Translations under genes and position numbers: made by a program
The notes under the pieces: model-generated
The model's input: only the letters and a program-made list of their open reading frames with translations
The model's database searches: none
What the model was told of the DNA's origin: nothing
Shown: positions 12,053 through 50,150 of the stretch, one piece after another
Position numbering within the stretch: position 1 is the stretch's first letter
How the letters are laid out: each line of letters starts with the position of its first letter
Source: Tubulanus polymorphus
Taxonomy: Eukaryota > Animalia > Nemertea
NCBI RefSeq assembly: GCF_964204645.1
Contig: NC_134025.1
Span: 5,084,001-5,148,000 of the forward strand
DNA length: 64,000 nucleotides
Reading direction: 5' to 3'

Positions 12053-12637
<585 letters not shown>

Positions 12638-23748: not shown

Positions 23749-26700
23749 TTACATTAGACCAGGATTAAGCTGTAGTTCATCTTGATCTCCAGTCTGATCA
23801 TCATCTTCATAATTCAAATCACTGGCCTCCATTAACTTTCTCATCATGCCCATGATCGTTTCGTTTTGCTCAGTGAGGTTCTTCAGTCGAAGGCGCATTT
23901 TTCCAATGTCTTTCTGAATGACTTCTTGTTGTTCTTCGATTCTTTCAATGTCATCCTAAATAATAAATAGGTTAATTTTCATATTACTACAATGACTATT
24001 TTCATATCATGATACATGATGAAAGACATTGGAACATAAATGTTCGATGAGAAGCCACCATAGAGAAAATGTTTGTATTGATTATCTAGTTCTGACACTC
24101 CAGATTCCAACTCACCAGTTCTGGATTAAGAGCCTGAGCTATAGTGGATGCTGATAATGTGCTTTCCCAATTCATAAATTTTCTCACAGCCCCCATTCTT
24201 TTGTTCGGTCGAATCGTTTCGCACTTGCGTATAAACTTCCGTCTCAGAAATTGTGGCAAGATGCCTTCAACTTCAAGAGCCAATTCAACCTAGAGAATAT
24301 TAACACATGAAGTTCATCAATACAGAGATACTGAACTAAAATATTTTTCTAATGTGAAGAAAATAAGAAGCTGTACCTGCATTGCTAATCTCTTAAGGAC
24401 AGCCTGTTCTTGTACAGCTTTGATGTCATCTACAGCCAAACCAACCTACAACATTTAGAATATACTATTAACGCAACCATAAACTCATTAATATTTCAAC
24501 ATTAAGCCAGCTCTTTAAACCACTTAAAATCAACTTGTCAATCATAAATATTACAATATTGAGAAGTAAGATTTTTTGTATACAAATAATTGTATCTGAA
24601 TTATATAAAACAGTTACAACACTGAATGAGCGCTTCATCTGCTGAGATACAGAAAAGAACATCTGATATCACACATAAAATATCTGAATACATGTGTATG
24701 TTGCACGTGACGAGTGATCAGCATTCATTACAGCACGCTTATATTCATTTTGATTCACTAATAATTTCGATTTTGATCCTTCTTTCGAAACTCAATCCAA
24801 TCAAATTGAAGCATTCTGATTTCTCTTGATTACATACACATAAATAAATTGGAGTCATCCCTATATCATCATATACACAATATTGATATTAAAGTCATAT
24901 TTTTCCTTCACCTCCAATTTGTGTATCTTTTGATTTTAAACCCCTTCATCCTAATGTATACGTAATGTATGGATGAACCTAATCATGAATTCTAGGAGCA
25001 TTTATCGATAAAGCTTTAATCAGACGAAAACATCTCGAGGTAAAATCAGAGGATGCTGTTAGGAATTGAATCTATTCGGAAAATCATTAAGACGCATGAT
25101 CCAAAAAAATAACACCCTGGGTCTGACATTACACAGGCAGGAAATTGGCCAAATGGACCTATCTAAATGCAATATTCGGGGGATTAGTGAGGAATCAAAG
25201 ATCTATTATGGGAAGAATGTAGAAAAGAAACAAGTTCTCCTACTCGAATGCAAACATAAATTAAACTAGGTATTCTACATTTTTAGTTAAAACAAAAACA
25301 ACAACGAACATTTTAATGTAGATACATTAATACATATATGAGTAAAGAGTGATTAATTCGAGTGAAACAACAATTGGCAAAGAGTGAAGGACGAAGGACT
25401 CTATAGGACAGTAGTGCGCCGAGATTGTTATAAATTACCAGCAAGTTCATCGTGATGATTGACATCATGATGACAAATGTATAGAATAGGATATAGGACA
25501 TGGTCTCATAGAACACCATTGAGACATAGGTAGCTTCGGATCTCGGGTACATAGTCGTAAACAAATCGTCGTACTCAAATTCACCGATCATCATTACGGT
25601 CGTCTTAATGAGCGAAAAGTCGAATCGTCGAAACGACACCTGAAACATATACCGATCGCAACGCGTTAGTTTCAACAGTTTCAACATTATCTAACCACTA
25701 CTTACCAGTAAATTCATTATAATGATCGACATGACGATGAGGAAGCCAACGAATAATATATACATGGTAATCGGGTAAAAATGGTTTCCCGCGTATGAAC
25801 CATCGAGCGTATGAAACACGCCTTCATATTCCATTTCACCGATCATCATCACCATCGTCTTCACTAATGTTTTACCGAATGAATTAAACGTCACCTGCAA
25901 TATTCGCCCGTCAAACAACACTGCATATACATGTATATAATACAACACATGACTGCACAGACCGATGGAGTAACAATTATCAATGCCGGTATTATACCTT
26001 ATTATCATTTACATTATTCCTTACTTATTAAAGCTCATTATTATTACTATTTATCATTAAATTCTTTTTCAAGGGGCCTGAACGTCCTAGTGATCATACA
26101 GCCTTTATGGCTCTATTCAGGCCCCCAATCATCAAACTTGTGCATTAATACAAGCCCTTTATAATGTCACTGTTGGGAACAATGAAAAACATGGCAATAA
26201 AATGAAGCCATCATGATCAAGAATGGTATTTTCATTGAATATGACTTAGATTGAGCAAATCTGTTCTCTGTAAATGTTGGTGTCAAATGAGCAGTGGCAT
26301 TAACAAAGATAGCGTTATAAAGCCATGGACATTGACTGGTATCGTTTTATAGTCAATTACTGTGTATGAATGATTGAATTACATAATCTTTGAATTAGGC
26401 ATGAATCAAAACCAGCCGAGACCTTAACAATACATTGATAGGCTATCGTGTCAGTGTACAGTCACTTGTTACAATTCACAATTTGTCCGTTTTTTACGAT
26501 GGGACAGATATTATACAAACCTGATTTTGTAACAGCATGTAAAACGCGAATGCGAACGCCAATATGAACAGAACGAACACGACGAAGAAACGAAGAAATG
26601 TACGGAAAACATCCGTAAACATCACCACGTAGATACCAAAACGCGGAACTTTACGAATGAATAACACAAGATCGATCCACGCTAAAAATATACTCGCTGC

Positions 26701-29700
26701 TCCAACTTGCCACTGCCATGCCTAATGAGAGAAAACTACATATCAGAACAATGTTTTCCCGAAGGTGACTTTTAGAATATAGTTGAAATGCTAAATAAAC
26801 TACTAGCTCTGGAGACTTTTATATTTTTCATTATAATTGTGGGATATTCTACATACTATCTTCACAACAAGGATGTAATGTTTCATCAATGGTTATACAT
26901 ATCAGAACATCGGCATGGTCGTTCAAATGACCAGTAAATGGAGGAATTTCTTACCTCTCTGATGCCGATTTCACTTTGACAATCAGTAAAGTCCATCACT
27001 AGTAAAATTGCAGTGACATACATCACCCATTCAATGAAATTCTCCATTGTGAGGTAATGCAGTTTTGACTGATATATTTGGAACAGCTGAAAAATAATTG
27101 AAGACGCTCATGTACAAACTGCTATGTTATTCTTCAAAATCATAACCCTAAATTTTACATACAAAGAATTAGCAATCAAAGTTCGTATACGTTTTTGAGA
27201 AGAGCAAAATCTGAATAAATGTCAATCGTATTGAAATATTTACCTCTCGCAGTAGATTGAAAGCCGTCAATGAAATTATGACCCATTTCGATATTTTTAA
27301 GATCAACTTCCCAGTTTCATCCAACAATTCAGTGTAACCATTTGCCCTAACATCCTCACAACCAGTACAATTCCTATAGTAAGAGATAAAAGATACTTAA
27401 CTTGTAGCCATCGGATTGAAAGGATTTAGAACAATGCGAAATTATTCAAAGATTTTACGTACATTGTAGATTTGCAGTAGGCAAATGGAGGAAATGCGAC
27501 CATTGTATACGTGGTAAGAAACGTCAAAAATATGACATAAAAACTGAGATTCCCGTAGTAAACATAACGACCAAAGCTATTCCACTTGTGACGCAATAGT
27601 GAAGTAACCAACGGATGCATCAGTAAATCTTCACGATTGGACTGCACCTGAATAAAAATGCACCTGATATTAAGTAACATGTATATTTCTAACGAGTACC
27701 GGGCATCTTTTCCTGATCATTTACCATTATCATCAATGGATGATTTTTCTTAATAAGAGTTGAGTCCGCTGAATATGGTTTAACGTCTTCTTTCAGACGA
27801 AATTCTTCATCATAGATATCGCCTGAATAAAAAAATCAATATCACTTACTTACTAATTAACATTTACAAATACAAATTTACAAATCACAAAACCAGGATC
27901 CTTTATGCAAACCTGGGTCAGTTCCTGATTCGCTTTGTGGAATTTCCTTCCAGTATGAATACATGTCATCCAGAAATTCATAGTTGAATGTGATTTTGTA
28001 CTTCGGATGTTCAGCATTCATTGAATTAGATGACGTACACTTCATGAAAACTTTCTCAGCCACATCTGAAATCAGGTCGATCAAGTGTTACACCGATCCA
28101 CTTGAGAACTGGGTTTTTCTCAAACAAGACTATGAAAAACAAGTGTATGAATTATAAATACCTGGCATCTTCTTGATGAGTTTCCTCATGGGAGTATTCC
28201 TCCTACCAGAGGAGGGATCTGAAGTTTCATTTCGTAATGCTTCCTCCCAGCGGTCACTTTCACAAATAACAGTAGCTACATCCCTGAAATAAAAAATGTC
28301 ACCAGTAAAGAATATGACTTTGATGTCGATTTTCATGTGTGAGTGCTCCCCACGGGAATGTGGTAAAACCTATTACCTGAAGTTATTGTCAATAGCTAAG
28401 TCGAGACAATTGTTACCATCACTATCACGCTGCTCCACTGAAGCGTTCCATGCGAGCAACAATTTAACCATATCAGCATGACCTCTAGATGATGCCAAAT
28501 GAAGGGGTGTGGTCTATAATAACAAAACACAGAATCATTTTCATTATGATTTAACACTGAGTATTTAGTGATTTTAGCCAAGTAATGCGTTGTACATGCG
28601 GTTACACCCAAAATATACTTTAGCTACAACTTAAGTGAAACAGAAATCACGGAATCTTGAAGTAATCAAACCATGCATGAATCAAAAACGTATAATAAAC
28701 AGTTCTTGTCAGAGAAAAGGATTGAACTATGGTATCTAATAGAAAATTATCAACACAGTTTATATTCTAAGGGAAACTTTGAAGATGAACACACGTTTTT
28801 CTCACTTTCATAGAGTAATTCATGTTAGATTACATTACTATATCAATATACAGCTGGTCATAGTCAAAATTAGAGACACACTACAAGTGTGTTTTTACTC
28901 AAATACATGTACTTCTGAAATATATGCTACTCAAATGTGGTAATTAATGCTAATTAACTTTCAAATTGCATACATAGAGAATGGGTTAAAATTATACAGC
29001 TCAAAGAACACGATCAAATAAATAATTCTACAGAGATAAATCAACATTTCCATTCGAGATCATTCTTCGATCAGATAGGGCACCAATCAGTGGTTCAATT
29101 TGAAATTGGAAGCAAATGATTTCTAAAGCACGATGGAAATGTTATAACATAAGAAACTCACCATACACGAGGGACAACAATAGATTTTACAAATAGATCT
29201 TTTATACATTCTACCGATACCTTAGACTTATCCATAGGGTCGACAGGACTGTCATTATCAAGTAAACGACGAGCTGTCTTAACCCAACCTTTTGCGGCTG
29301 CGCAATCGAGTGGTGTCCACAGATTACAATTCCTGTCAGCAAGATTATAGCAAAGTTAAATAGCGCTAACTACGTAATAAGATATCAAAGCACAGATACT
29401 GTCACCAAAAGAGAAGATTGTGAATAAGAATCCTCCCAACTCGGCACTCATGATGTTGGGTGTCTAATTTTCAGCTCCCTTTGAAAGTGTTTACCGGTAG
29501 TTTTAACTACATGTTAGCCTTTTCGACACCAAACACCTCTAACACCATTTACAGTATGAATATAATAACGGTATCACAGTCACCACAACTACCTGGTACG
29601 TATATATTGACAGGCAAATAGTTTAGATTTGATGCTTCTCGGATATATGATTATAGATAGAATCCTTTGAAAGTGATACTATACAGAAATCCATACATAA

Positions 29701-32700
29701 TTTAGGCAAATGATTGCCATCTTGGTGAAAAGAATATAATATATGCCCAAATACGAAACAAAAGTTAAGACTACCTTCGATTTATCAAGAGGGTCAACGG
29801 GACAGTCGTGGTTCAATAATGCTTTAGCAACGTTCATTGAACCATTGGCAGCTGCACAATCCAATGGAGTCCATAAAGAACAATTCCTAAGCAAAAGTTG
29901 TATCACTGAATATCATTGTTATTCTACCAGATTTTAACAAAATCGATTCCTATATAAATGATGTGTACCTGACCTATAGAAACATTTAAGGGCCTGATTT
30001 TACGAATTCACTCAGTGGAATATATATTCATATTAAACATCTTATAAGATGAACTTTTATATGACTAAAGTTGCAGTGACTTTTCTTCATGGGGGTGACA
30101 AAGAATACCACGAAATATCCCATATCTGTGCTAAGTGTGTAATAATCTTTTGTGCAAATAAATGTTCAAATCAATCAAAGTGTATATGTTCTAAATATGT
30201 TAGTGGCATTTAATTGTTACTTTGCTTCGATTAGTTCAATCAACAAGCCGCGCTACCAACAGCAGTCAACATTAAATCATAAACCAATCGATCAGATTGA
30301 TAGTTCAATAAATCAATCAGTTATTGGTGGATATTGTGTTAATTGGTTAAATGTAAATGTATAATGGTGTAGTACGCGTTGTATACCTTGGATTTGTCTA
30401 GAGGATCAACAGGACAGTCGTTGTCCAGTAAAACCTGCGCGCATTTCAGTGACCCATTAGCCGCTGAACAATCAAGCGGGGTCCACAAACTGCAGTTCCT
30501 GGTAGCAACGAAAGTGATTTTTGTGTATAATTACATTGTTCAATAAACATACCCATGCTATCAAGATGTATTTTCGTACATGATACTAAGTTCAATTCGT
30601 CATTTATTCTCCTCAAGTGGTCGAGGTAGCAAAGTGATCGAATCATTAGCCGCGGTGATTCAATACATATTCCATATGAGCTGGAAATAATTCAGGCCAT
30701 GCTGATCACGGCGATACTCTACATACCTGGCTTCAATATCAGCTCCCATTTCTATCAGTTCAGCCGCGACTTTAGCATGACCCGCTAGAGCAGCAAGATG
30801 AAGAGCGGTATTCGAATCTTCATCTTCATCATTGACAATCATTTTATTTCTTCTCACCAACTCCCTTACAACTCTAAAACATCAAGCAACTCATTAAATA
30901 TTTCAACTCCTAAAGACTACAAAAATACGATGATATTGATATTTTTTTGGATAAATTCAATAGTAACTCATTATGTAAACTTACTTTGTTCGGCCATATT
31001 TAGCACCGAGATGAAGTGGAGTTTGCTCTTCCTCATTTTTAGCATCCAGCTGAGCTCCATGATCGAGCAGGCTCTAAATACGTGGATATGTTTAAATCAG
31101 TTGTATTTACAAGTGTTTTGGACATAATAGTGCGCTTTGAATTGAGTGGAAAATGCCAAAATCTACCTTAACTATGGCTAGATAACCTTTCATGGCTGCG
31201 ATATGTAGAGGAGAATTATCATATCGATCGCTAGAGTCAATCAAACCATACTGAGTTGCTTTTGGATGATTTGCTAGAACCTAAAATATAACAAAAGAGT
31301 CTAAATTACTCTTTTCTGTGGCATAGAAATCTTATACAAGTATGTACACATAAAACCAGCATAGTCTAGAATTCTAACTGAAATTACCTCTAGAGCCTCA
31401 ATGTTGTCTTCCTCAGCGGCCCAGTAAAGAGCAGTTTTATCGTTTTTGTCCATAGCTCTAATATCTGCACCACGTTTCAGTAGGGCTTGTTCCGTTTCAG
31501 CATGACCATAACAAGCAGCGATTAGAAGTGGAGTGAAATTGTCTCGATCTCTTCGTTCAATCTTAGCACCCCTACGAAAAAACCAAAACTTTTCTACTAA
31601 TGTTTCTGAGTTATTTTACTAACTGGCGTACACGATGTGTACTTGGTTCAACATAAACTTACTTGTCCAATAAGTACTCAACAACCTTTGCGTGGTTATA
31701 CTTGGCTGCCTGATGTATTGGTGCGGCCTGTTGTTGATTGAGGGCATCAATTCTAGGATTATGATCGCAAAGAAGTTTCACAATTTCCAAATCTCCTGAC
31801 TGCGCTGCTAAGTGTAAAGCAGTGCTGTAGTTTTTCCTATGTCCATTTACATCAGCGCCTAGAAATTATGATACAGTCACAATTTAAGATTAAATCGACA
31901 TAGAGATATTAAAGATTTTCAATTACCGGGTAAGTTTTACCTTTCTCAATCAAAAGTCTAGCAACTTCATAGTTTCCATTTTCAACAGCTAAATGTAAAG
32001 GTGAACTTTGATCGATATCTTGGTCTGTCACCATCTAATGATAAAAGAGATGAGTTAAAATATTCAAATATCAATAGGTATGATGGCAAAATATATCAAC
32101 AATTTATTGGATTGTCTTAAAATCCTTCTTGAATATATTTCTGAGAATATCAATAACGATCTTTAAGTCTCTTACTTGTGATATTGTCACCCAACCATCA
32201 AGCTTTTCACCAGCATCAAACAACAATTTACACATTTCGACATTTCCTTCCATAGCGGCGAGATGAAGAGGGGTTGATAGCTCTTCATCAACGCAGCGTA
32301 ATTTAGTACCTGCTTCTATAAGCATACGACAAATTTCTAGATGATTGTGGGTAGCCACGAGATGCAATGCTGTCATATTCGTCTTGTCTACAGCCTATAA
32401 ATATGATTCAACAATTTCAAAAGTGCATTTCATCAAATAAGGACATGATTTCAACTGTAAAATTTTCATTTCAAATTGTGTCACGGTAGGGTAAGTTTTT
32501 GGCTCTATATTCATTCATAATTGATTCACCCATTCCGAGTCTACTGGGATTATGGATACGTTTAGAAAATTGAATAATTGTTCATTTTTTGACTCGTGAT
32601 ATCTAAAACAGACAATGCTTTACCTCTATCTGAATTTCAGGACAAAGCAGCAAATCGCGGGCAGCCACTTCATTTCCCCTCATGGCGCTGTAATGAAGGG

Positions 32701-35700
32701 GTGTCAAACCATAGATATCCCGACAATTCGGATCAGATCCATGTGATATGAGGTATTCAATGACGCTAGGCTGCTCGTCGACATCCTTTTCAGCAGTTCC
32801 CTCTTCATTTTCATTCGGAGTGACATCTCCGTTAGGCTAGATAAATTGGAAAGAATTCATAAAACCGAAACTGCAAGAATGGGTTAAATTGAAGTGACTA
32901 CATGCATTCGGGTGATGTTTACAACATTAATCAATAGTACCGGCCATTACTGAGGAAAATTGGGGAAAATTTGATCTAGAAATTGATTGACACCTTGAAG
33001 ATTATCTAATCAACTGGTTATTAGAAATTGACAACGGTATAACTCTATATTCACTCTCATAAAGGTACTATTTATGCAGTATACAGTGACGTGTTTTTGT
33101 GACCATTCAATATCAGTGACAATGATATATTACGATCAATATTTGGAAAACAGCATCGCGATGCAAAAACCGTATCACGAAATAACTTCATCAATGTTCA
33201 GCTAAAACAGCACTAGTGTTTGCTCACTGAGCAGCTGAATATAGGGTAGATTGTATCCCATAAGTGATAAGATCAGTTCTATGTATTGCCAACTTTCAAG
33301 CAGGGTTCTTTTTACAGGGGTTAGTCTGACTGGTTTCTATTTTTTACCAATTTAATCTCCGGCACTCTGAGGAAAGAATGTTATATCAACAAGTGGCTGA
33401 TTCATTGAGATTTCTCATCCATGTGATATGAAATAATATCCTGGGTGGATATAGATGATAATTATTGATATAACTAGATTGCAATGACTGGGTGTGGTTG
33501 AATTGTGCATGTTGACTGTTTTAAGTTGATCTATACAAATATGAAGTACCTAGTACTCAAACATTTCACAGCTGAAGGTATTATATCTCAGTATACAAGC
33601 TCCCACGTGAATCTGATACAATTGTGAATACACATAGAATGGTACATCAGCAGCAAAGCCAGAGAGGGCTATCGGTTTGAACTAGCAAATCAAGCTTGGT
33701 ACATGTATTTCAAAGAACAGCAAAAGAAAAGTGACAAAGAACAGAAATATTGATTCCTATAAATAAGTTTAGGATACAGCCGGAGGATTCCCACTAGACG
33801 CATGAGTTAGATTTCTTGCGAAACCTTTTATGTGCAGATTATATGAACAGACATAATACATTATGAATATAGCCATGTATATTCTGTTTCCACGGCAAGT
33901 TTAAAGTGGAAACTCACAAGTTTAATATAGGCCCTAGAATTCTTCTAACATCTCTAGTGAGAATCTGCATTAAAATTTGAAGTTTAACAATTCAAATTGT
34001 GAAGCAACATTTAGAGCAATTCACACACATTTCAAACTCAAAGAATTCCACTGAAATTTCTGATGCCTCTCAGTAAAAGTGTTTCTATAGTTACTGTAAA
34101 TATCCAATTTCAAGTCATTGATTAGAATCACCTATGCACATATGACAGGAATGAAACTATAATTCTATTTCAGCTCGAAGCGATGAAGACATCGAAATTA
34201 CGAAACACGAATGACCATGTTTAAAACTGAATTTTTTTGAAACAGAAACCTTGACAGATGCTAAGTGGAAAAGCAAAATCAATGTGTGCTATACATGAGG
34301 GTCAAAATATTATCCATACTTGTGCAATTCCACTGTCCGTACTATCAGCAATCTGAAAACATAATTCATTTGTTCCATGCAAAATACGGTTCATAAAAAA
34401 TTCTCAAACATTACAGCCAATGAAATATACACTATCATGTCCTCATTATCAATTTATTATCCCGAATATACCAGAAGGGGTGAAATTATTGGCTGAACTA
34501 CAAACTCATCTTAGAAATTGTGTGTCTCATTGATTTCTTCTGGATCTGTCCGAAGGATTATATTGCTGGATTAAAGATTACACGATAGGGGCAAACGCAC
34601 CTTCACCAAATTACTGCAGATGATTTTTCAAATTTTATATTAGAAATAAGACAAACATCCAAGAATGTAAGTATATAAGCTATATACGCGAGGGCAATCA
34701 TAATCATTGATGTCATTTCATTTCTATCTGACCAGTTTACATTCTTTGACGCACAGATATATAGATGAGTGCTATGACTCATTACAGTACGTTCACAAAT
34801 AAATAAGAGGTTTTGAACTGACGAGTACTATGACTTATTAGAGTACGTTTACGGTGTATTAGAAACTAATTCGAGAAGTTTCGTAGGTGTATTGATTAAT
34901 ATCTGGTAAACGTTTGAAATATTATGAAATTAACTCAAAACCATTTCACTTACGTTCATACAATAGCATGTAATTGATTGTGAGAGATGAAATTATATCA
35001 ATAAACACAATTTCAGTATTATAATAAACAAATCAGCAAAGAACTTAAAGGAATTAATAGTTAATGTAATCAAGTAAAAAAAACAATACCAGTAGATTGG
35101 TTTGGTTTCAAGAAAAGGTTTAAGCATTACAAAGCAAGGCAATCTTTCCTCACTGGAAATAAATCTGAAAACTCCCACTGCAATTGATTTATTGTTAAGA
35201 TGTTGTGTAATTTTCAGGGGCAAGGAGAGCAACCAAAATTCTTATGAAACCGAACCCAACATGGCAGTAAGAAAACAAGACATACACACACATACATATA
35301 TCATACATACTGGAGCATATAAGGTACTACTTGTAGACCTGTGGTGTAACTTCTGCAATAGATTTGACAATAACACAAATACGTAAAATATGTATGTGAT
35401 GACCATACATTTCCATAAGGTGAAAAACTAGACCCTTGGCAATACAGTTATTCACTATGCAATTAGTATACAAACGTCAGGTTTTAGTGTTTTAGTTTCT
35501 ATGCAGAAAATGGTTGAATTGCTCACGAAAATAGTAAGTAATACTCTTATCCAAACAAATTTACGAATTACGAATCATCATTTTTGCGACTATTTCAGAG
35601 TTTGAATTTCAACAAAGAGCAACTAAAACATGATCTTTTTTATCAGCTTCAGTGAAAATCCATATGACAAATTGACAAAATCAGCAGCAATTACAGTACA

Positions 35701-36738
35701 CGAACATAGAATACAAGAATGTGAGGTCGTAACTAATCTTACCTTCGAGTCGGGGATGTTTTCATCGACGGACCTAGATCGGTTGATTTTTTGTTTTTTA
35801 TATCGAGCTCCGTAATGAAGAGGAGTCGCGTCATCTTCACCGCGATCGTTTACATCTAAATGAATTAAAAACGTAGTTCACGATTACAGAATATTTGTAA
35901 GAAAATACCGAATATTCTGCCAGGTTTTTAAGGATGATTCACTTACTCGCTCCTCTTTCAACCAGAAGTTTAACAATGAGATAATGATCGTAACGAGCCG
36001 CGTAATGAAGGGCGCTTAGTTTATTTTCATCATGCCAATTAATCCTTTTCTTGAGCTGACCCTTCGACATTTGATCGAGAAGTCGGCGTAATGAGTCAAC
36101 ATTGCCATCTCTAGCGCACTGAAATGAATTTTTTTATATCGGTTTAGAATAGGCCTAATTTGAAATCGGAAATTCAGCTCCAAGCAAGCTCATGAAAGTG
36201 TAATAAGGTTAATTGAGTAAATAAGTGGGTAAGTATACTAATATATGAGTTATTCACTCAATTAACCTGTTCTTCTCCGTTTATACCCCTGTTTTCAGTC
36301 AATATCTCACACCTGATGATGATCTCTAGGGTGAGATCGAAACGTCTTGTATTTTATATATTTTAGATTTTCTGAATTCGATTTTAAAATCATCTTAATT
36401 TGTGGGTTTTTATCTTATTATCCATTCACCACGTTAGAGAGTGGTTATTGTTCTAAGTATAATTGATATTTTACCTGATGTAGGGTTAATCCAGCAATGG
36501 ATTCAGTGCTTTCAACTCTCTTTAATCCAGGAGATGATACTAAAGTAGTTAATTCTGTTGCACCGGGTAGGGCACCCGCGATATGACGCTGTTCATTATC
36601 ATCGTCCGCGGGGTCAACAAACCCAACCGATCCAGCTACACGTGACATGTCGTATTGTCGAGTTTTACCTCCAAGGAATTTTGAAAATCGGAAGTTCAGC
36701 TCCACCGTATTTCTGGAATCTAAGATATCATCAGCCAT
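23749..36738 (-). CDS. TRPA1: TRPA1-family ankyrin-repeat cation channel, multi-exon, with mutually exclusive exon clusters
   Basis: Many ankyrin exons (SALHYAA, TPLHY, TALHLAA), linker LLMHPLVTSLLRHKW, S4-S5 LFIRKVPRFGIYVVMF, pore MMIGExEY, S6/TRP-like MNLLVGLAVDDIKAVQEQAVLKRLAMQ, C-terminal coiled coil; first coding exon 36475-36738, last 23749-23955; exact TRPA subclade unresolved. Confidence 0.92.
25439..25639 (-). CDS. TRPA alternative pore+S6 exon P2 (201 nt)
   Basis: TTTCAG|VSFRRFDFSLIKTTVMMIGEFEYDDLF...IMMSIITMNLL|GTAATT, phase 0-0. Confidence 0.9.
25706..25894 (-). CDS. TRPA alternative pore+S6 exon P1 (189 nt)
   Basis: TTGCAG|VTFNSFGKTLVKTMVMMIGEMEYEGVF...IVMSIIIMNLL|GTAAGT, phase 0-0. 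Confidence 0.9.
29221..29332 (-). CDS. TRPA alternative ankyrin exon C (112 nt)
   Basis: CAG|G-NCNLWTPLDCAAAKGWVKTARRLLDNDSPVDPMDKSK|GTATCG. Confidence 0.9.
29775..29886 (-). CDS. TRPA alternative ankyrin exon B (112 nt)
   Basis: TAG|G-NCSLWTPLDCAAANGSMNVAKALLNHDCPVDPLDKSK|GTAGTC. Confidence 0.9.
30387..30498 (-). CDS. TRPA alternative ankyrin exon A (112 nt)
   Basis: CAG|G-NCSLWTPLDCSAANGSLKCAQVLLDNDCPVDPLDKSK|GTATAC. Confidence 0.9.
34320..34352 (-). CDS. Candidate 33-nt TRPA microexon (IADSTDSGIAQ)
   Basis: GTTTTCAG acceptor, GTATGG donor, phase 0-0 like the flanking exons, no stop. Confidence 0.55.
36309..36350 (+). ncRNA. Minimal type I hammerhead-like motif, probably a Penelope-like element remnant
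   Basis: CTGATGA-T-GATCTC-TAGGGT-GAGATC-GAAA-CG-TC; stem II perfect, stem I partly mismatched. Confidence 0.5.
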
Positions 36739-39064
36739 TTAACATGTAAGATTCCAAGTTGGAGACAAAACTCCATGAGCTGAGCTCAAACTGCTGTATA
36801 AATTATTTAAAGTGACTAAATACTAAATGAATGCTATACATAATACCGTAGAGAGTATTCTCTATACACAAGCTGCCCGGTACTCGAAATTTAAGGCATA
36901 GCAATTCTATTCATTGAAGACTTAAGCATTCATGCACTAGTAAACTTGTCTTGGCCTTGCCCCAATTCTTAATCTCATTCATTGAGTTGTGAAACAATAT
37001 AAAATCTTCTCTGATACAGTAGTAAAACAAAATACCATTTTGAAATGTTTACCAGCAGATGATTTTTTTACCCAAAAAGATACCTACCATTTCAGCAACA
37101 TCTCTGAGCTAATAGTAAGCAGCAGAGAATCACTGACTCGGCCGACTTGGCAGTCAATGTATTTATGTTATTTTTGACAGGTCTACGATCGATACTGCTG
37201 TCGCCGCCTTTCGGTTACTGAATTAACTACACTAAACTGACTACACCCTTCCCTTCCTCTAGCGCCTCTCAAGAAACAAATTTCACATAATCCTCCATTA
37301 ATCTGTGAATAAAATGTTACCTGTGATAGTATTCCGAGGTATGTATTTATTTCACCATTGTCAAAGAAGTGTAATTCGTCGTCTATTTTGTTTTTTCGAT
37401 CCTAACAACCGTCATTGGTACAGAGTAAATCACGTACGGTGTAATCGGAATAAGAAGAGATCTCGTCAATTTGATATCAAGAGGAAAACGCGTAATCGGA
37501 TTAAGTACTTCCATCTCCAACGCCGGGTATTGACAATCAAAGATCCAAATTCAAATAAGTTACAACACTTCAATTCAGAATTGAATAGTTATTGTATGTA
37601 TTTTTTATTAATTACAAAAGCAACAACAGCCCATGACAAATCATATCCAACGAGCAATCTGAACAGCCTGATGGTTTAACTAATACATCCGATGTGCAAT
37701 TCTTTAAAATCCGTCATTACGTCTTAACATCAAAACTATATCCATAAAGCATGAAACAAATATCTAAATTGCTTTAACTTCAGAACACCATTAATGTAAA
37801 CCTTTAAAAAGCTATGGCTTTATATGTATACAACTTTGAAATGGACTATCTCTATAGACTGCAAGCCTGATATCATATAGCAGACGAACACAGAGCGACA
37901 CTAACTATGACATTATTATCCCTGAGATAATAATCGATTATTTTCTACAACAATTAAAACTACAACTATTATTCATCTCGAGATATGTTTTATATTTACT
38001 TCTAAGATACTCTCGTAGGCGGAATATGAAAGGACTGCAATGTATCAGAACAAAAACGTATACATTACTATCATCTTCACTAGCCTTTAAATACTTTGTC
38101 ATCAATATTTTATTCAGGTAAAGAACAAAATGGCATAACTTAACATCAAAAAGCATAATGATAATTACTATCAAAGAATACAACTTGGTTTGAACTTGTA
38201 CCGGTAAAAAAAATATTGAAGAAAATCATCTATGAAATCATCATAATGAATTATAAAATGTCTATGGAATTCCATAGATGAAATCCTTGCAGCATAGCCT
38301 CAATACTATCTGTATGACCTAGGAGCAATTATCTAATAGATAATTGCTCGTAGGTATAACATACACTCCACACACAGATCACAGCATTATGAGTTCAACT
38401 CATTGTTCCCAACTGCAGTACTCGTATACCTATATACTATATCACTATATTTACCTTATTACCTATTTACAATTTAAAACAATTGGTCTTATCTAAAATT
38501 AAGAATACTATCATTTTACAGATCACTAAACAACTAACTATATTCTTGGTTTTTCTTCATAACTAATTTGAATAGCGCCACATAAAAACGGAAGACAATA
38601 TTTATATATGGTACCTTACTTAGGATAAAATTAGACATACTAGGTAGTTATGGAGGGTAAAATATATATGTCATTGTTGTTGAATGTATTAGAACCACAA
38701 TATATCAAATTATCAAAATTTAAGTACAATCAAGTTTTCTATTGGTTACGGAAAAATACAGGAACAAAATTATGCAGAACACCTGAAAAATTTCAAAGAA
38801 AAATTATTGAATTAAATTTCAATACGTTAGGTAATGGTACATGCAACTAATGAATCATACAATGACCATTACTTTGCTGCAGAAAACTATCAGGTGATAA
38901 CCAGATCACCTATAAACACACAAATAGATTTAAAATGCCATTGAAAGCAAAAAAGAAACAAAAAGAATTGCACCTGGTTAGATAATAATTATGAGTAAAA
39001 TGCATAGTATTTAAATTATTCATTGAAGTTTGAGTATACAATTGTGTAGTGTATTGAGTTGCCT

Positions 39065-43200
<4,136 letters not shown>

Positions 43201-44227
43201 ATTGATTGAGATTATAATGATTTCTTATCCAAATCTGCAAAAGAAAATATTGATTTTTAATATGCAAACTCCAGGGAGCCTAATGAATATCTAAGCAATT
43301 AGGCTCAAAATTATCTTTTTATTTGAGCCAGTGCATTCAATTCTTAATTCGAAATGCCCAAATAGTTGCTATCAGTATTAGGCCTATGTAGCCTGCTGAT
43401 ACTAGATCCTGGCCCCTGCTCTCCAAATCAAATTCCATTTAAAAGTCTTAGCAAGACTAAAGTGTCCAAATCAGACTAACCAGGCGATCACCCAGTGGCA
43501 GCAGTAGCCCTGACTTGTACTGACACTGACACCGTACACATGTCATATATATACAAAACATACACAATAAATTAATTTAAATTTGACTTGACTAATGATT
43601 GGTTATGTAATGTACACGAAATAACCCGTTTGAAAAGGGACAGACTCTGAATTTAAAGTTAACAGGAGGTAAGATGTGATATAGATGGTATGCCTGAATA
43701 GTATGCATAACGTGTATTTCGGCTCAGAAACCTTTAGATTTGTATTTTTGAAACAGGTTAAACTGCAGCTATGCAGCATGTCCCGTGAGAGGACCTGGGG
43801 CCTGTGACGGGACAAGGATGTCCCGTCACAGGTCCCGATGGAAAATGAAAACTTTGCATTTCGTAGACGAAATGTCGAAAGAAACTGCACTCCATTGGTT
43901 ACTATATACACTCAAAATAATGTTAAGAACATGTTAATAATCGAAATTTGTTCGTAATTTTATTATTTCAGATCAATGATATCATCAAATCGAAACATTA
44001 AATGTAATAATGAAGATCGGATCAAGAGAAGACAGAACCACAGCTATCGAAATTTCAATTTTTAGTGTATAGACTGACTCATACTATCGAAAATAAAGTG
44101 AATGTATCTTGACAATTTTGGTGCCAATGGTGTTAGTAACCGTTTGTTAAGCGTTACACTGCAAACAAAAGTAAAAGTGGAGGGGGCAACTTAATGGCCC
44201 TAGATCACTCTCGAGAGAGAATTCAAA

Positions 44228-45251
44228 GTGAGGGACCCGATTCAACACACTGTCCCGTGAGAAGACCCGATTCAACTTACTGTCCCGTGAGAGGACCCGA
44301 TTTCAAATACTGTCCCGTGAGAGGACCCGATTCAACACACTGTCCCGTGAGAGGGCCCGATTTTAAATACTGTCCCGTGGGAGGACTCGATTCAACACAC
44401 TGTCCCGTGAGAGGACCTGATTCAACACACTGTCCCGTGAGAGGACCCGATTTCAAATAATGTCCCGCGAGAGGGCCCGATTCAACACACTGTCCCGTGA
44501 GAGGACCCGATTTTAAATACTGTCCCGTGAGAGGACCCGGTTCAACACACTGTTCCGTGAGAGGGCCCGATTTTAAATACTGTCCCGTGAGAGGATCCGA
44601 TTTTGAATACTGTCCCGTGATAGGGCCCGGTTTCAAATAATGTCCCGTGAGAGGGCCCGATTCAACTCACTGTCCCGTGAGAGGGCCCGATTTTAAATAC
44701 TGTCCCGTGAGAGGACCCGATTTTGAATACTGTCCCGTGAGAGGGCCCAGTTTCAAATAATGTCCCGTGAGAGGGCCCGATTCAACACACTGTCCCGTGA
44801 GAGGACCCGATTTTAAATACTGTCCCGCGAAGGAACCCGATTTTAAATACTGTCCCGCGAGAGGGCCCGATTCAACACACTGTCCCGTGAGAGGACCCGG
44901 TTTCAAATAATGTCCCGCGAGAGGGCCCGTATCAACACACTGTCCCGTGAGAGGACCCGATTTTAAATACTGTCCCGTGAGAAGACCCGAATCAACTTGC
45001 TGTCCCGTGAGAGGGCCCGGTTTCAAATAATGTCCCGTGAGAGGGCCCGGTTTCAAATAATGTCCCGTGAGAGGGCCCGATTCAACACACTGTCCCGTGA
45101 GAGGACCCGATTTCTAATACTGTCCCGTGAGAGGACCCGAATCAACTTGCTGTCCCATGAGAGGACCCGGTTTCAAATAATGTCCCGTGAGAGGACCCGA
45201 TTCAACACACTGTCCCGTGAGAGGACCCGATTCAACACACTGTCCCGTGAG
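44228..45251 (+). repeat. Left 30-bp tandem array (~34 units), TGTCCCGTGAGAGGACCCGA plus variable 10-mer
   Basis: Exact 30-nt period visible from 44251 to 45251. Confidence 0.97.
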
Positions 45252-45682
45252 CCAAAAGTTGTTGAATGAGTATCTTTATGACAAATAGTGAATATTGTTG
45301 GAATATTTCTCTATTTTGATTTATAGGTGTCCGGCGAACGACAGGACCAAGACGATGACGTGGGCGATGATATTTCAAACGTGAGTCAAAAGTTGTTGAA
45401 TAAATATCTTTATGACAAATAGTGAATACTGGTGGAATATTTCTCTATTTTGATTTATAGGTATCCGGCGAACGACAGGACCAAGACGACGACGTGGACG
45501 ATGATATTTCAAACGTGAGTCAAAAGTTGTTGAACGAAAAGTTGTTGAATAAATATCTTTATGACAAATAGTGAATATTGTTGGAATATTTCTCTATTTT
45601 GATTTATAGGTGTCCGGCGAACGACAGGACCAAGACGATGACGTGGGCGATGATATTTCAAACGTGAGCCAAAAGTTGTTGC
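45247..45682 (+). repeat. Three tandem copies of a ~135-150-bp intron plus 54-nt exon unit
   Basis: Exons 45327-45380, 45461-45514, 45610-45663 each encode VSGERQDQDDDV(G/D)DDISN between TTTATAG and GTGAG. Confidence 0.9.
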
Positions 45683-47941
45683 ATGAAAACTTCAATGTAC
45701 AATATGAAAAAATGATCAAATATTGAAAAAAAATATATTTTACTGTATGAAATTACAGGTGTCCGCAGAAGACGGCTGGCTTAGATTGTATGACGACGTC
45801 TTTGATATACAAAATCTCACCGAGGCAGAACAGATTAAAATCAGTATGAAGTTATCACTCAAAGAGTCACATCTCCGTCAGAGTGCAGAGAAAAGGCTTC
45901 AATCTCTAGTTTCCGAATCCAATCTGAATATTGTGTCGGTCGCGGATGACGGAAGCTGCTTTTTTTGCAGCTGTTGTCGAACAATTGAGGCGAGAAAACG
46001 TTGACATAACAGCACATGAGCTACGATTAATGGCTGTTTCATACCTTTCTGAAAATAGATATTGCGCTGTAAGTAAATTAAAAACCCATTGATATATCAA
46101 GACAGACTACAATAAATATTATATACACATATTATGGTTTGCTTCGCTGGATGGGGCTGATAAGGCCGACTTTCTGGAGTCTCATCTGACATGGCCATTA
46201 TATCTTAATAAAATGAGACAAAGAACCACCTGGGCCGATGCTTTAGTTGTCCGTGCCACAGCTGACTGTTAAGGGAGACCAATGGTACTATATACCAGTT
46301 CAGAGCAGTCAAACATCAATATGATAGATCCTGTCGAATGTAAAAATGCTGAACCCATCTTACTAGGGCATATTCAAGATATTCACTACGTTGCCCTAGT
46401 AAAAAGGAGCTATATCCCATGACGACGCGTGTCAGTCGAGAGTGTCAGAGGGTACCCTTGCGGCCTAACCCACGGAAGACGGTAAGTTGATAGTATATGC
46501 CACCCCTTCTGACTATTTGGCAAAAATAATACAGCCATCAGAAGCCTTGTTCATGTCAGCTAAGGGTTAATTAATTGAATTTCATAGCGTCAAAGTGACA
46601 GTTACCTCTGAGAACCGCAGAAAAAAAGAAGACGGGTTGTCGATAAAGGAATCTACTGCGTTTGCAAGAAACCAGATGATGGAAGGTAAAGCTTAATTAT
46701 ATCATATAAGATCAGGCTGTTGTTTTAAGATTCAGTCGTCATTGTCGAAAAAATCTTTTACCTTCACTTTCACTTTCACTTACCTTCACTTTCAAAATTT
46801 TCTGCATTTGCATTTTGGGAAGTATTTGCAATGCGATGAATGTAGTGGGTGGTTCCATCCGAAATGTATTGGTCTGAACGAAGATACTGTGGAGAAAATT
46901 GACTATAGATGCGAAACGTGTTTTTAGGTAAGCGATGAACTAAAAAAATATTTTGATCAAATAAGCTATGCCTATATCCTTGCTATGCTATCCTTTTATA
47001 CAATGTGATTGCATTCTTTTTATATAGGTACCTAAACGATTCATTAAGAGTCAGGTATGGAATCCGATACATAATGCATACGAAACTCTTGCCATTTTCC
47101 ACTAGAAAGCAATGAATCAAATGTTTTTCTTTTCGCAGCTTGGCGCGGTTGAATATCACGTTTCTCGTATAATTAATGCCGAGATAAAAGACAAGAGGTA
47201 AATATTGTACCTTAGTAGAAATCTCGCCAGTTTGTTGAATTTTTCAAACTTTTGTTGATAATATACAATCTTTGGTTTCAGAAGGCCGGAATTCAGGAGA
47301 CATTTGGACTTGATTAACAAAGACCATGAAAGAGCCGAAAAAGAACTGAAAGGATATGGCTATGGGCTTTTAACTGATGAGGTAAGCATTGATAACAGAA
47401 AATATGAAATGCGTACAAATAAATGAGCTTTCTTTCGATCATCGTAATATTCAATATTTTAAAGGGCCATGCATATCTCTATAGTGTAATGAAATCATAC
47501 GTCAGCCCTACCTTTGCGGACAAATCGTAAGTATATACATGAATCAGACGTGAAGTTTTTTTACTATATTTCGAAATGATAATCAATTCATTTCAATTAC
47601 AGGAAACCATATTCAACTCGCTACATGACCCTCCGACAACATCATTCTAAAATGCTGAATTCAGTTTTTAAAGAAGGAAAGACGTAAGTTCATTCTCATC
47701 TTCTATTGCTAATTTCTTAAAAGAATTTCATCCATGTTATATTCATTGTATTAAAATATTTTTCAGGTCAGCAGTAACGTATGTTAATGACGTTTTGCTT
47801 AAAGAGGCCATTTGTTTATTGGTGTCAACCTACCGAAATATCACATACAACGAGGCTGATATTCTTGGAAGAAGAACAGAGGCCAAAAAACTAAAAGATG
47901 TACAACGACTAATGTCCAAATACTTCTTGCCAGATTATTGA
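45327..47941 (+). pseudogene. 5'-truncated spliced transposon gene: acidic repeats, UIM-like helix, OTU cysteine protease, PHD finger, unknown C-terminal domain
   Basis: VADDGSCFF(frameshift in T7 at 45960-45966)AAVVEQL...HELRLMAVSYL; YLNKMRQRTTWAD..(TAA 46270-46272)..ILLGHIQDIHYVAL; IYCVCKKPDDG / LQCDECSGWFHPKCIGL...YRCETC; further small GT-AG exons ending in TGA at 47939-47941. Confidence 0.82.
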
Positions 47942-48864
47942 AGAGTGAAGCAGTTTTCGATTCTTAAATGGGAGCTGTTGTAGATTGGTTATCCCGTAAT
48001 GATTGTATTCTATGGAATAAGTTTTCTTGTTGCGATGAATTTTTGGATTGCTAGAGATGGTCTTTGCTGAATTTTGGTAATGGTTTTAATAGGAACCAGA
48101 TTGTGACATGGATGTTTGAATTGTTGAAATGCTGTCCAGTCTTCTAATAGATGTGTGTAGTATATAGCCTATAGAAGTTCTTTGCAATGATGTTTCAGAA
48201 GTTATGAATGATGGTTGAAAGATTCCAGCCGGGGCCGAGATGGTATTGTAAATTGTTGTTAATTAGTGGATCGTTTTATCTGCCTGGTTTGTTGTCGATG
48301 TCTTATGCTGTGTACTACTTCGTGTTAAATATTATTTTTGTATTGTGTCTTAACAGACAAGGGCGTTTTCTGTCATCCAATATGAAATGATAATTTTTGG
48401 TTCAAATTATAATACATCTATCCGGAATTGGGAAATATTGCTGAAGAGTAAAAGGGGAAATATGAAAGAATTGATGATAACCTTTTTTACCGTGTAAAGT
48501 AATAATTAATAATTAAATGATAAGTAATAATTTAGTTTGGCGACAAAGATTTAGTAATCTAAAATGCTAAATTGATTTCGAATTCCAACGTATGTTGTTT
48601 ATGTTCAAATATGAATAATATAGTCTTCGAATGTAATATGGTTTACAGATTTTGATAAATAAATAACTGAACATAATTTCACATATATACGATTTGTTTT
48701 ATGTTTTAAGGGGACATAGCCAATTTGGCTTTTAGTACGTACATCCAGCCATCATTGTACGCATATTGTTGAAATAATAATTTCTTGTTGTAATTTTTAT
48801 ATATGGCAAAAATGCATTATCATTATGAGCATGGGACTCAACATTGACAAAGTGGACAATTTTA

Positions 48865-50150
48865 GTCCTCTCACGGGACAGTGTGTTGAACCGAGTCCTC
48901 TCACGTGACATTCTTTGAAACCAGGTCCTCTCACGGAACAGTAAGTTGATTCGGGTCCTCTCACGGGACAGTGTGTTGAATCGGGTCCTCTCACGGGACA
49001 GTATGTTGAATCGGGTCCTCTCACGGGACATTATTTAAAAGCGGGCCCTCTCACGGGACAGTGTGTTGAATCGGGTCCTCTCACGGGACAGAGTGTTGAA
49101 TCGGGCCCTCTCACGTGACATTATTTGAAACCAGGTCCTCTCACGGGACAGTGTGTTGAACCGAGTCCTCTCACGTGACATTCTTTGAAACCAGGTCCTC
49201 TCACGGGACAGTAAGTTGATTCGGGTCCTCTCACGTGACAGTGTGTTGAATCGGGTCCTCTCACGGGACAGTATGTTGAATCGGGTCCTCTCACGGGACA
49301 GTATTTAAAATAGGGTCCACTTACGGGACAGTGTGTTGAATCGGGTCCTCTCACGGGACAGTGTGTTGAACCGGGTCCTCTCACGGGACAGTATTTAAAA
49401 TCGGGTTCCTTCGCGGGACAGTATTTAAAATAGGGTCCTCTCACGGGACAGTGTGTTGATTCGGGTCCTCTCACGGGACAGTGTGTTGAATCGGGTCCTC
49501 TCACGGGACAGTATTTAAAATAGGGTCCTCTAACGGGACAGTATTTAAAATCGGGTCCTCTCACGGGACAGTGTGTTGAACCGGGTCCTCTCACGTGACA
49601 TTATTTGAAACCAGGTCCTCTCACGGAACAGTAAGTTGATCCGGGTCCTCTCACGGGACATTATTTGAAACCAGGTCCTCTCACGGGACAGTGTGTTGAA
49701 TCGGGTCCTCTCACGGGACAGTATTTAAAATCGGGTTCCTTCACGGGACAGTATTTAAAATAGGGTCGTCTAACGGGACAGTATTCAAAATCGGGTCCTC
49801 TCACGGAACAGTGTGTTTAATCGGGTCCTCTCACGTGACATTATTTGAAACCAGGTCCTCTCACGGAACAGTAAGTTGATCCGGGTCCTCTCACGGGACA
49901 TTATTTGAAACCAGGTCCTCTCACGGGACAGTGTGTTGAATCGGGTCCTCTCACGGGACAGTATTTAAAATCGGGTTCCTTCGCGGGACAGTATTTAAAA
50001 TAGGGTCGTCTAACGGGACAGTATTCAAAATCGGGTCCTCTCACGGAACAGTGTGTTTAATCGGGTCCTCTCACGGGACAGTATTTAAAATCGGCTCCTC
50101 TCACGGGACATTGTGTTGAATCGGGACCTCTCACGGGACGGTAACTTGAA
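48865..50150 (-). repeat. Right 30-bp tandem array (~43 units), inverted relative to the left array
   Basis: TCGGGTCCTCTCACGGGACA recurs every 30 nt; the TCACGGGAC(A/G) core runs from 48871 to 50140. Confidence 0.97.

What the first reader, a model, noticed from the sequence alone, without database searches (positions are those of the whole stretch)
25439..25894. TRPA channel with two interchangeable pore+S6 exons
Seen: between the exon ending ...YMLLQNQ (26521) and the exon starting VGLAVDDI (24445) lie two intact paralogous exons, each encoding pore helix, selectivity filter, outer loop and S6. They differ at the filter (IGEMEYEG versus IGEFEYDD), in loop length (63 versus 67 aa) and across S6, yet both keep MMIGE and MNLL. 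Known: these segments set ion selectivity, gating and blocker pharmacology in TRPA1, and pore-loop splicing changes selectivity in TRPM3; the Drosophila TrpA1 alternatives I know are at the N-terminus and ankyrin-TM linker instead. Inference: one gene makes channels with two different pores, possibly as heterotetramers.
Basis: partly seen in the sequence, partly recalled or inferred. Interest (0 to 1): 0.9.

Follow-up and report, generated by a model that had tools for sequence, protein, structure and literature searches.

The report
Spare pore exon in ribbon-worm TRPA
A ribbon-worm gene for a TRPA-type ion channel carries two intact copies of the exon that builds the channel's pore and three copies of an ankyrin-repeat exon; only the first pore copy is seen in transcripts, but the second is so well conserved that it is likely a rarely used alternative, predicted to change the pore's outer mouth rather than its filter.

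Summary
Observation confirmed; interpretation partly. Exon A (25894-25706, 63 aa) and exon B (25639-25439, 67 aa) are intact, AG/GT-flanked paralogous pore+S6 exons of a nemertean (Tubulanus) TRPA gene, likely of the basal TRPA-1-like clade, not TRPA1 proper. Only A is seen spliced: both A junctions occur in one RNA-like run, no B junction does, and 7 of 7 RefSeq isoforms use A. Yet B keeps 26 of 27 conserved residues (A: 23), good splice sites and the gene's best branch-point motif, despite dS about 1.5-2 from A; neutral decay beyond about 0.1 substitutions/site is unlikely. That branch point lies 40 nt from A's donor, suggesting steric exclusion. Best reading (0.65): mutually exclusive cassette, A dominant, B rare; rival (0.25): B recently silenced. 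The filter Gly-Glu is identical in both; differences lie in outer vestibule, loop and upper S6. Swappable pore exons are known in NALCN, and this scan noted them before in octopus TRPC on other DNA; my searches found none for TRPA.

The parts
23749..36648 (-). Coding span of a TRPA-family channel gene (ankyrin repeats plus six-TM domain); 26 exons in RefSeq model X1 (1232 aa), named 'TRPA1 homolog' of Tubulanus by the source
   Evidence: P0001 found with exon A; maps onto the window with 25 GT-AG introns of 77-1483 nt; Pfam Ank and Ion_trans
26521..26721 (-). Shared upstream exon (S4, S4-S5 linker, S5); its donor at 26521 feeds the pore cassette
   Evidence: joint 26521>25894 in run X2
25706..25894 (-). 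Pore exon A (pore helix, filter, outer loop, S6 up to human L956 equivalent); the dominant, annotated form; the more derived copy
   Evidence: Both junctions in X2; 7 of 7 RefSeq isoforms; 23 of 27 conserved columns, 8 rare residues
25640..25705 (-). 66-nt intron between A and B, shorter than all 25 introns of model X1 (minimum 77); holds an ACTAAC branch-point motif whose branch A (about 25666) is 40 nt from A's donor and 26 nt before B; predicted steric block to joining A and B
   Evidence: threshold under 50 nt from PMC5740500
25439..25639 (-). Pore exon B; intact and unannotated; same length as the Lineus pore exons; predicted minor alternative exon
   Evidence: 26 of 27 conserved columns, 3 rare residues; acceptor scores above 20 of 25 and donor above 9 of 25 introns; no junction seen; no protein carrying it found
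24377..24445 (-). Shared downstream exon (end of S6 with the lower-gate region, TRP-like helix)
   Evidence: joint 25706>24445 in X2
30387..30498 (-). Ankyrin cassette copy a (112 nt), used in RefSeq isoform X2 (P0009)
29775..29886 (-). Ankyrin cassette copy b (112 nt), used in RefSeq isoform X3 (P0005)
29221..29332 (-). Ankyrin cassette copy c (112 nt), the ancestral-like copy, used in 5 of 7 RefSeq isoforms
   Evidence: 33 of 37 residues identical to Lineus P0031

Best explanation
The gene holds two intact, long-diverged copies of its pore+S6 exon, of which A is spliced into the transcripts seen and B is likely a mutually exclusive alternative used rarely or in a tissue or stage not sampled. 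Shown: the tandem duplication, splicing of A alone, strong purifying selection on B until at most very recently, and a second cassette of three ankyrin exons that appear one at a time in RefSeq models and frameshift in any combination. Inferred: A and B cannot be joined because B's branch point lies only 40 nt from A's donor (steric exclusion); no frameshift safeguard exists there, as both lengths are multiples of three. Predicted by analogy with human TRPA1: both channels keep the same filter (Gly-Glu) and lower gate, but B has an acidic residue where human E920 collects cations and A has glycine, plus a loop 4 residues longer, so the forms would differ in conductance, divalent or ruthenium-red block and perhaps gating, not in basic ion class. 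Up to 3 x 2 = 6 combinations are possible.
For: Intact frame, AG/GT and equal phase. pS 0.70 versus pN 0.33 between A and B (dS about 1.5-2.0, dN about 0.4; Fisher p 5e-5; 39 synonymous sites, near saturation). B matches 26 of 27 columns conserved in 110 distinct homologous exons (homologue median 25; A 23). Neutral simulation from B: frame, splice dinucleotides and at least 25 of its 26 conserved residues survive in 12% of 4000 runs at 0.05 substitutions/site, 1% at 0.1, 0 of 4000 at 0.2. B's acceptor beats 20 of 25 introns of the gene; CTAAC occurs in 0 of 25 of those introns' 3' ends but does before B (chance about 0.6-2%). Donor-to-branch distance 40 nt versus at least 51 in the 14 of 25 introns with a candidate motif. 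No A-to-B joint in 4 runs laid. The same gene uses another duplicated-exon cassette one exon at a time in RefSeq X1/X2/X3. In humans one exon of such clusters often dominates while the other is restricted (PMC5740500 section 8). E920 role from PMC5100928; mapping.
Against: No B junction in the one RNA-like run (X2), where both A junctions were present; an unbroken contig runs through B and both its boundaries. 0 of 7 RefSeq isoforms use B; no protein carrying B in two database searches. No second pore variant among annotated members of 20 clusters from other animals (150 of 173 members listed, many fragments), so conservation of the pair is not shown. The simulation cannot exclude silencing within the last about 0.05 substitutions/site. 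The branch point is a motif guess and the 50-nt limit comes from human data. The E920-equivalent column is variable in the family (Ser 34, Asp 22, Thr 16, Gly 16 of 110), so the predicted effect may be modest. The exon tree was unresolved.
Confidence: 0.65

Rival explanations
1. B is the older pore exon, functional for most of its history, but recently displaced by the derived copy A and now silent; decay has not yet shown.
For: No transcript or protein with B. B is the more ancestral-looking copy (same 67-aa length as both Lineus genes; 65.5 versus 50.8 bits to Lineus P0031), while the more derived A is what is expressed.
Against: Silencing would have to fall in the last about 0.05-0.1 substitutions/site of a history of about 0.75-1 per branch, and both copies must have been kept for most of that time, which itself implies long alternative use. 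Splice signals and branch point of B are good. Only one RNA-like run, as contigs that drop rare forms, was examined.
Confidence: 0.25
2. B is sometimes included after A (or the A-B intron is retained), giving a non-conducting product that regulates channel dose rather than a second pore.
For: A+B would stay in frame (189 and 201 nt); read-through of the retained 66-nt intron meets a stop 4 codons after A; X2 holds a contig continuous from A through B.
Against: No A-to-B joint seen; the intron is shorter than all 25 others and its branch point is close to the donor; a poison role would not need 26 of 27 conserved pore residues; all neighbouring introns are also covered by unspliced contigs in X2.
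Confidence: 0.06
3. The second copy is an assembly or haplotype artefact or a chance resemblance.
For: None beyond absence from annotation.
Against: 52% protein identity with saturated silent sites is no haplotype pair; an independent 11,190-nt contig of X1 and a 599-nt contig of X2 carry the same arrangement; profile and structure-sequence hits.
Confidence: 0.01

Closest known systems
NALCN alternative pore exons 15a/15b and 31a/31b (Senatore et al. 2013, PMC3557258; abstract and section 6 read)
   Same: Tandem, mutually exclusive duplicates of an exon spanning pore helices, filter and the start of S6, in invertebrates including lophotrochozoans.
   Different: NALCN exons swap the filter residue itself (E versus K), are conserved across phyla and both forms are expressed. 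Here the filter is unchanged, the pair is seen in one species and only one exon is shown spliced; as a TRPA is a tetramer of one domain, a swap would change all four pore loops or give mixtures.
Drosophila TrpA1 mutually exclusive exons (exon 1 and exon 10a/10b; PMC11471635, abstract read)
   Same: A TRPA gene with two separate either/or cassettes whose choices can be linked.
   Different: The fly cassettes encode the N-terminus and the ankyrin-to-membrane linker of a TRPA1-clade channel; here they are one ankyrin repeat (three copies) and the pore+S6 exon (two copies) of a basal-like TRPA.
TRPM3 long and short pore-loop variants (PMC9290681, abstract read)
   Same: Splicing in the pore region of a TRP channel changes loop length and pharmacology.
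   Different: The abstract describes a loop-length change; (recalled) it arises from an alternative splice site adding 12 residues, not from duplicated exons, and leaves pore helix and S6 unchanged.
Basal / beta TRPA channels (starfish PpTRPA basal, PMC5438368; Capitella TRPAbasal, PMC6451338; beta-TRPA, PMC13402157; passages read)
   Same: Family of the host gene by similarity: 1635 bits to Lineus, 1215 to a Lamellibrachia homologue, 622-708 to nematode TRPA-1-like proteins versus 408 to human and 378 to chain 7ykr (fly TRPA1, recalled).
   Different: The passages read mention no pore-exon duplication; the starfish basal channel gave no response to heat or agonists in oocytes, so the stimulus for this clade is open.
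Octopus TRPC with three alternative pore exons
   Same: Duplicated pore+S6 exon in a spiralian TRP channel.
   Different: Other TRP family and other animals; not tested here. The Limulus paper those notes cite (PMID 15525336) is not held, so it was not seen.

Membership tests
Mutually exclusive exons from tandem duplication (pore pair A/B) | Adjacent paralogous exons, similar length, same phase, coding the same structural region | tested here: met
Mutually exclusive exons from tandem duplication (pore pair A/B) | Each exon is found spliced to both shared neighbours | tested here: inconclusive
   Met for A; no junction for B in one RNA-like run held as contigs, which cannot show absence; 0 of 7 RefSeq isoforms use B
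Mutually exclusive exons from tandem duplication (pore pair A/B) | The exons are not joined to each other | tested here: inconclusive
   No 25706>25639 joint in 4 runs laid, of which one is RNA-like
Mutually exclusive exons from tandem duplication (pore pair A/B) | A mechanism of exclusion (donor to branch point under 50 nt, frameshift, or docking structure) | tested here: met
   Predicted branch A 40 nt from the donor, motif-based only; no frameshift safeguard; no convincing pairing element
Mutually exclusive exons from tandem duplication (pore pair A/B) | Purifying selection on both copies | tested here: met
   very recent loss of constraint not excluded
Mutually exclusive exons from tandem duplication (ankyrin trio) | Each copy appears alone in a transcript model; combinations break the frame | tested here: met
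   RefSeq X1 (c), X2 (a), X3 (b); 5 of 5 other combinations hit early stops. These are predicted models; the junction rows for this cassette were not visible
NALCN-type selectivity-switch exons | The alternatives differ at the constriction residue of the filter | tested here: not met
   Gly-Glu at human G914/D915 in both A and B and in 109 of 110 homologues
TRPA family | Many N-terminal ankyrin repeats plus a six-TM ion transport domain; best solved-structure matches are TRPA1 | tested here: met
TRPA1 clade (electrophile sensors) | Reactive cysteines equivalent to human C621, C641, C665 and K710 (sites recalled) | tested here: not met
   Thr, Cys, Asp and Lys at those places in the alignment; Thr in 117 of 119 and Asp in 119 of 119 homologues
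Basal / beta TRPA clade | Groups with nematode TRPA-1 and invertebrate-only homologues rather than with vertebrate and fly TRPA1 | tested here: inconclusive
   Similarity scores favour it; no tree with TRPA1-clade sequences could be built, none being among the stored proteins used
Functional ion channel with two distinguishable pores | Both forms conduct and differ in permeation, block or gating | not testable with these tools
   Needs expression and recording

The most novel reading that the evidence does not exclude
One TRPA gene builds up to six channels by independently swapping a sensor-side ankyrin repeat (three copies) and the whole pore helix-loop-S6 module (two copies), with a hidden, unannotated pore form B reserved for a specific cell type or life stage and differing in outer-pore charge, divalent block and gating: the first modular pore switch in the TRPA family that my searches could find.
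Probability: 0.4. Interest if true: 0.65.

Novelty: new variant of a known kind. Interest (0 to 1): 0.45.

Why it matters
If B is used, it gives a natural pair of TRPA pores on an identical background, a clean way to test how the outer vestibule and upper S6 tune conductance, block and gating in a clade (basal TRPA) whose stimuli are largely unknown. It would extend pore swapping by duplicated exons from NALCN, and from the TRPC cases noted earlier in this scan, to a further channel family, and show that annotation can miss a well-conserved pore exon. Limits: one species, a non-model animal, no change at the filter residue, and no transcript of B yet.

Tried and rejected
No whole genome is held, so other TRPA genes and genome-wide minimum intron size could not be checked. 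Run search: no RNA holder listed on record; X2 behaves as RNA by its GT-AG joints; X1 looks like DNA; X3 and X4 showed no splice joints and gave no information; X5 laid nothing, which is no evidence. Contig depths were not used to rank exons. In one search, 24 of 39 joints were not shown, so junctions of the ankyrin cassette could not be read; both read-laying runs are spent. Exon tree of 33 rows: 2 of 30 inner branches starred, A and B unplaced; AU tests rejected neither A+B (p 0.45) nor B+Lineus (p 0.42), so the age and order of the duplication are not resolved by the tree. Repeat search found no convincing docking/selector pairing. Two hits with two matched stretches (P0232, P0243) hold only one pore copy; of 358 stored proteins only P0189 has two pore motifs, about 1170 residues apart in a 3636-aa prediction that looks like fused neighbouring genes. 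In one search, 5 of 119 homologues were dropped (motif not located) and 4 duplicates merged, leaving 110. Rfam: 0 matches in the window. No fold or complex prediction was run: the B-form is not available as an unjoined sequence and a model would not test splicing. Literature: 10 searches; the listings showed no paper on duplicated pore exons in a TRPA gene or on Tubulanus TRP channels; subscription papers are mostly not covered and no supplements were read. Look-ups of earlier scan notes by sequence and by genome returned nothing.

Full report
Observation. On the minus strand, between an exon ending at 26521 and one starting at 24445, lie two open exons: A, 25894-25706 (189 nt), and B, 25639-25439 (201 nt). 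Each follows AG, precedes GT and is phase 0 at both ends. They share 33 of 63 aligned residues. Each matches Pfam Ion_trans 170-225 and the pore helix-loop-S6 stretch of solved TRPA1 chains. A contig of 11,190 nt from a DNA-like run spans both without listed differences in this stretch, so the pair is real.

The gene. Exon A retrieved P0001, labelled by its source as a TRPA1 homolog of Tubulanus (species name cut off; a nemertean genus), identical over the exon. It maps onto the window from 36648 to 23752 with 25 GT-AG introns of 77-1483 nt. It scores 1635 and 1392 bits to two Lineus genes and 622-708 to nematode TRPA-1-like proteins but 408 to human TRPA1. At the places of human C621, C641, C665 and K710 (electrophile sites, recalled; positions counted from the alignment) it has Thr, Cys, Asp and Lys, as do nearly all of its 119 close homologues. 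It is therefore likely a basal or beta TRPA, the invertebrate-only clade described in PMC5438368 and PMC13402157 (passages); no tree with TRPA1-clade rows was built.

Splicing evidence. Five runs were listed, none on record as RNA. X2 shows GT-AG joints and behaves as RNA. It holds both A junctions (26521>25894 and 25706>24445). It holds no junction into or out of B and no A-to-B joint, and one unbroken contig (25135-25733) runs through B. Contigs drop rare forms, so this shows dominance of A in one sample, not absence of B. All 7 RefSeq isoforms use A, and two searches with B found no protein carrying it (best identities 48% and 67%).

Is B alive? Between A and B, 70% of synonymous and 33% of non-synonymous sites differ (dS about 1.5-2.0, dN about 0.4, p 5e-5; few sites, near saturation), so the duplication is old. 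Among 110 distinct homologous exons 27 columns are conserved at 70% or more; B matches 26, A 23, the homologue median is 25; B has 3 rare residues and A 8 (median 3). B has the length of both Lineus exons and scores better to Lineus P0031 than A does. In 4000 neutral simulations per step, B kept its frame, splice dinucleotides and 25 or more of 26 conserved residues in 12% of runs at 0.05 substitutions per site, 1% at 0.1 and none at 0.2; less with indels. B's acceptor scores above 20 of the gene's 25 introns and its donor above 9 of 25, whereas A's acceptor is weak. So B was under selection for nearly all of its history. Either it is used rarely now, or it fell silent very recently; the tools could not separate these.

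How exclusion would work. A and B are both multiples of three, so joining them would keep the frame and give two pore modules in a row, which I infer to be non-functional. The intron between them is 66 nt, shorter than all 25 others, and holds an ACTAAC motif whose branch A is 40 nt from A's donor; in the 14 of 25 introns with a candidate motif the distance is 51 nt or more, and 0 of 25 have CTAAC. A distance under 50 nt is the steric-interference criterion used for human exon clusters, met by 9% of them (PMC5740500, passages); the same paper reports that one exon often dominates and the other is tissue- or stage-restricted (section 8). No convincing RNA pairing element was found. The steric step is inferred from a motif.

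What a swap would change. On human numbering both exons have Gly-Glu at G914/D915, the constriction (PMC5100928, abstract and passages), like 109 of 110 homologues. Both end at L956, so the lower gate (I957/V961, recalled) is shared. They differ at I916 (Met/Phe), R919 (Glu/Asp), E920 (Gly/Asp), in the outer loop (23 versus 27 residues, 4 versus 6 acidic) and in several S6 residues. In human TRPA1, neutralising E920 roughly halves inward single-channel conductance and weakens barium, gadolinium and ruthenium-red block without changing the size cut-off. The prediction is tuning of conductance and block, not a calcium/sodium switch; the column is variable in the family, so the effect may be small.

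A second cassette. Three 112-nt paralogous exons (30498-30387, 29886-29775, 29332-29221) each encode the same ankyrin repeat (about human 512-547, counted). RefSeq X1, X2 and X3 differ only in which one they carry. Each alone is open; all 5 other combinations tested hit early stops. Silent sites are saturated while 18-20 of 20 conserved residues are kept. The gene thus has one cassette already in annotation and one hidden, with up to six combinations. Ankyrin and pore regions both bear on TRPA1 temperature sensing (PMC10120293, passages), but nothing is known for this channel.

Spread. In 20 clusters from molluscs, annelids, brachiopods, arthropods, flatworms, acoels, echinoderms, hemichordates, amphioxus and Lineus (150 of 173 members listed, many partial), no annotated isoforms of one gene differed in the pore or this ankyrin exon. 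Unannotated copies would be missed, as B is here. The exon tree was unresolved.

Comparison and verdict. Duplicated alternative pore exons are established for NALCN (PMC3557258); fly TrpA1 has either/or exons elsewhere; TRPM3 varies its pore loop; earlier notes of this scan describe the same design in an octopus TRPC (unchecked). Ten searches showed no TRPA case (listed under Tried and rejected). This is a new variant of a known kind. Alternative use of B is likely (0.65) but unshown, and the filter does not change; interest 0.45.

Noticed in passing
window 30498-29221 (-): Three tandem paralogous 112-nt ankyrin-repeat exons in the same TRPA gene, used one at a time in RefSeq isoforms X1, X2, X3; any combination frameshifts.
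   Followed up: yes
window 35353-35311 and 34352-34320 (-): Two small exons after the second ankyrin stretch that are present in isoform X1 and appear to be skipped in the shorter isoforms X4-X6 (lengths 1221, 1218, 1207); X7 has a shorter N-terminus.
   Followed up: partly
window 17934-17029 (-): Iodothyronine deiodinase-like reading frame (PF00837 on both halves) interrupted by one in-frame TGA at 17442-17440 in the active-site motif, as expected for selenocysteine; Rfam found no SECIS at gathering score.
   Followed up: partly
window 9731-9339 and 2701-2213 (-): First exons of two neighbouring two-pore-domain potassium channel-like genes (PF07885), apparently tandem paralogues.
   Followed up: partly
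window 12110-12634 (+): Single-exon small membrane protein (PF06541; TMEM229B-like by recall).
   Followed up: partly
window about 39060-41060 (-): Exons of a cytosolic 5'-nucleotidase (PF05761) ending about 2 kb upstream of the TRPA gene on the same strand.
   Followed up: partly
window about 44100-45300 and 48700-50350: Two arrays of a roughly 30-nt tandem repeat that read as long open frames on both strands, with a PHD-finger-like fragment between them (46697-46924); possibly a mobile element.
   Followed up: no
window about 26040-26270 and 36280-36460: High-copy repeat fragments in introns of the TRPA gene, one of them in the intron just upstream of exon A (very high contig depth and many loose ends).
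   Followed up: no
proteins P0031 and P0058 (Lineus): Lineus has two separate genes of this family whose pore exons differ even at the filter (Gly-Glu versus Gly-Asp) and whose ankyrin exons resemble different Tubulanus copies: gene duplication there, exon duplication here.
   Followed up: partly
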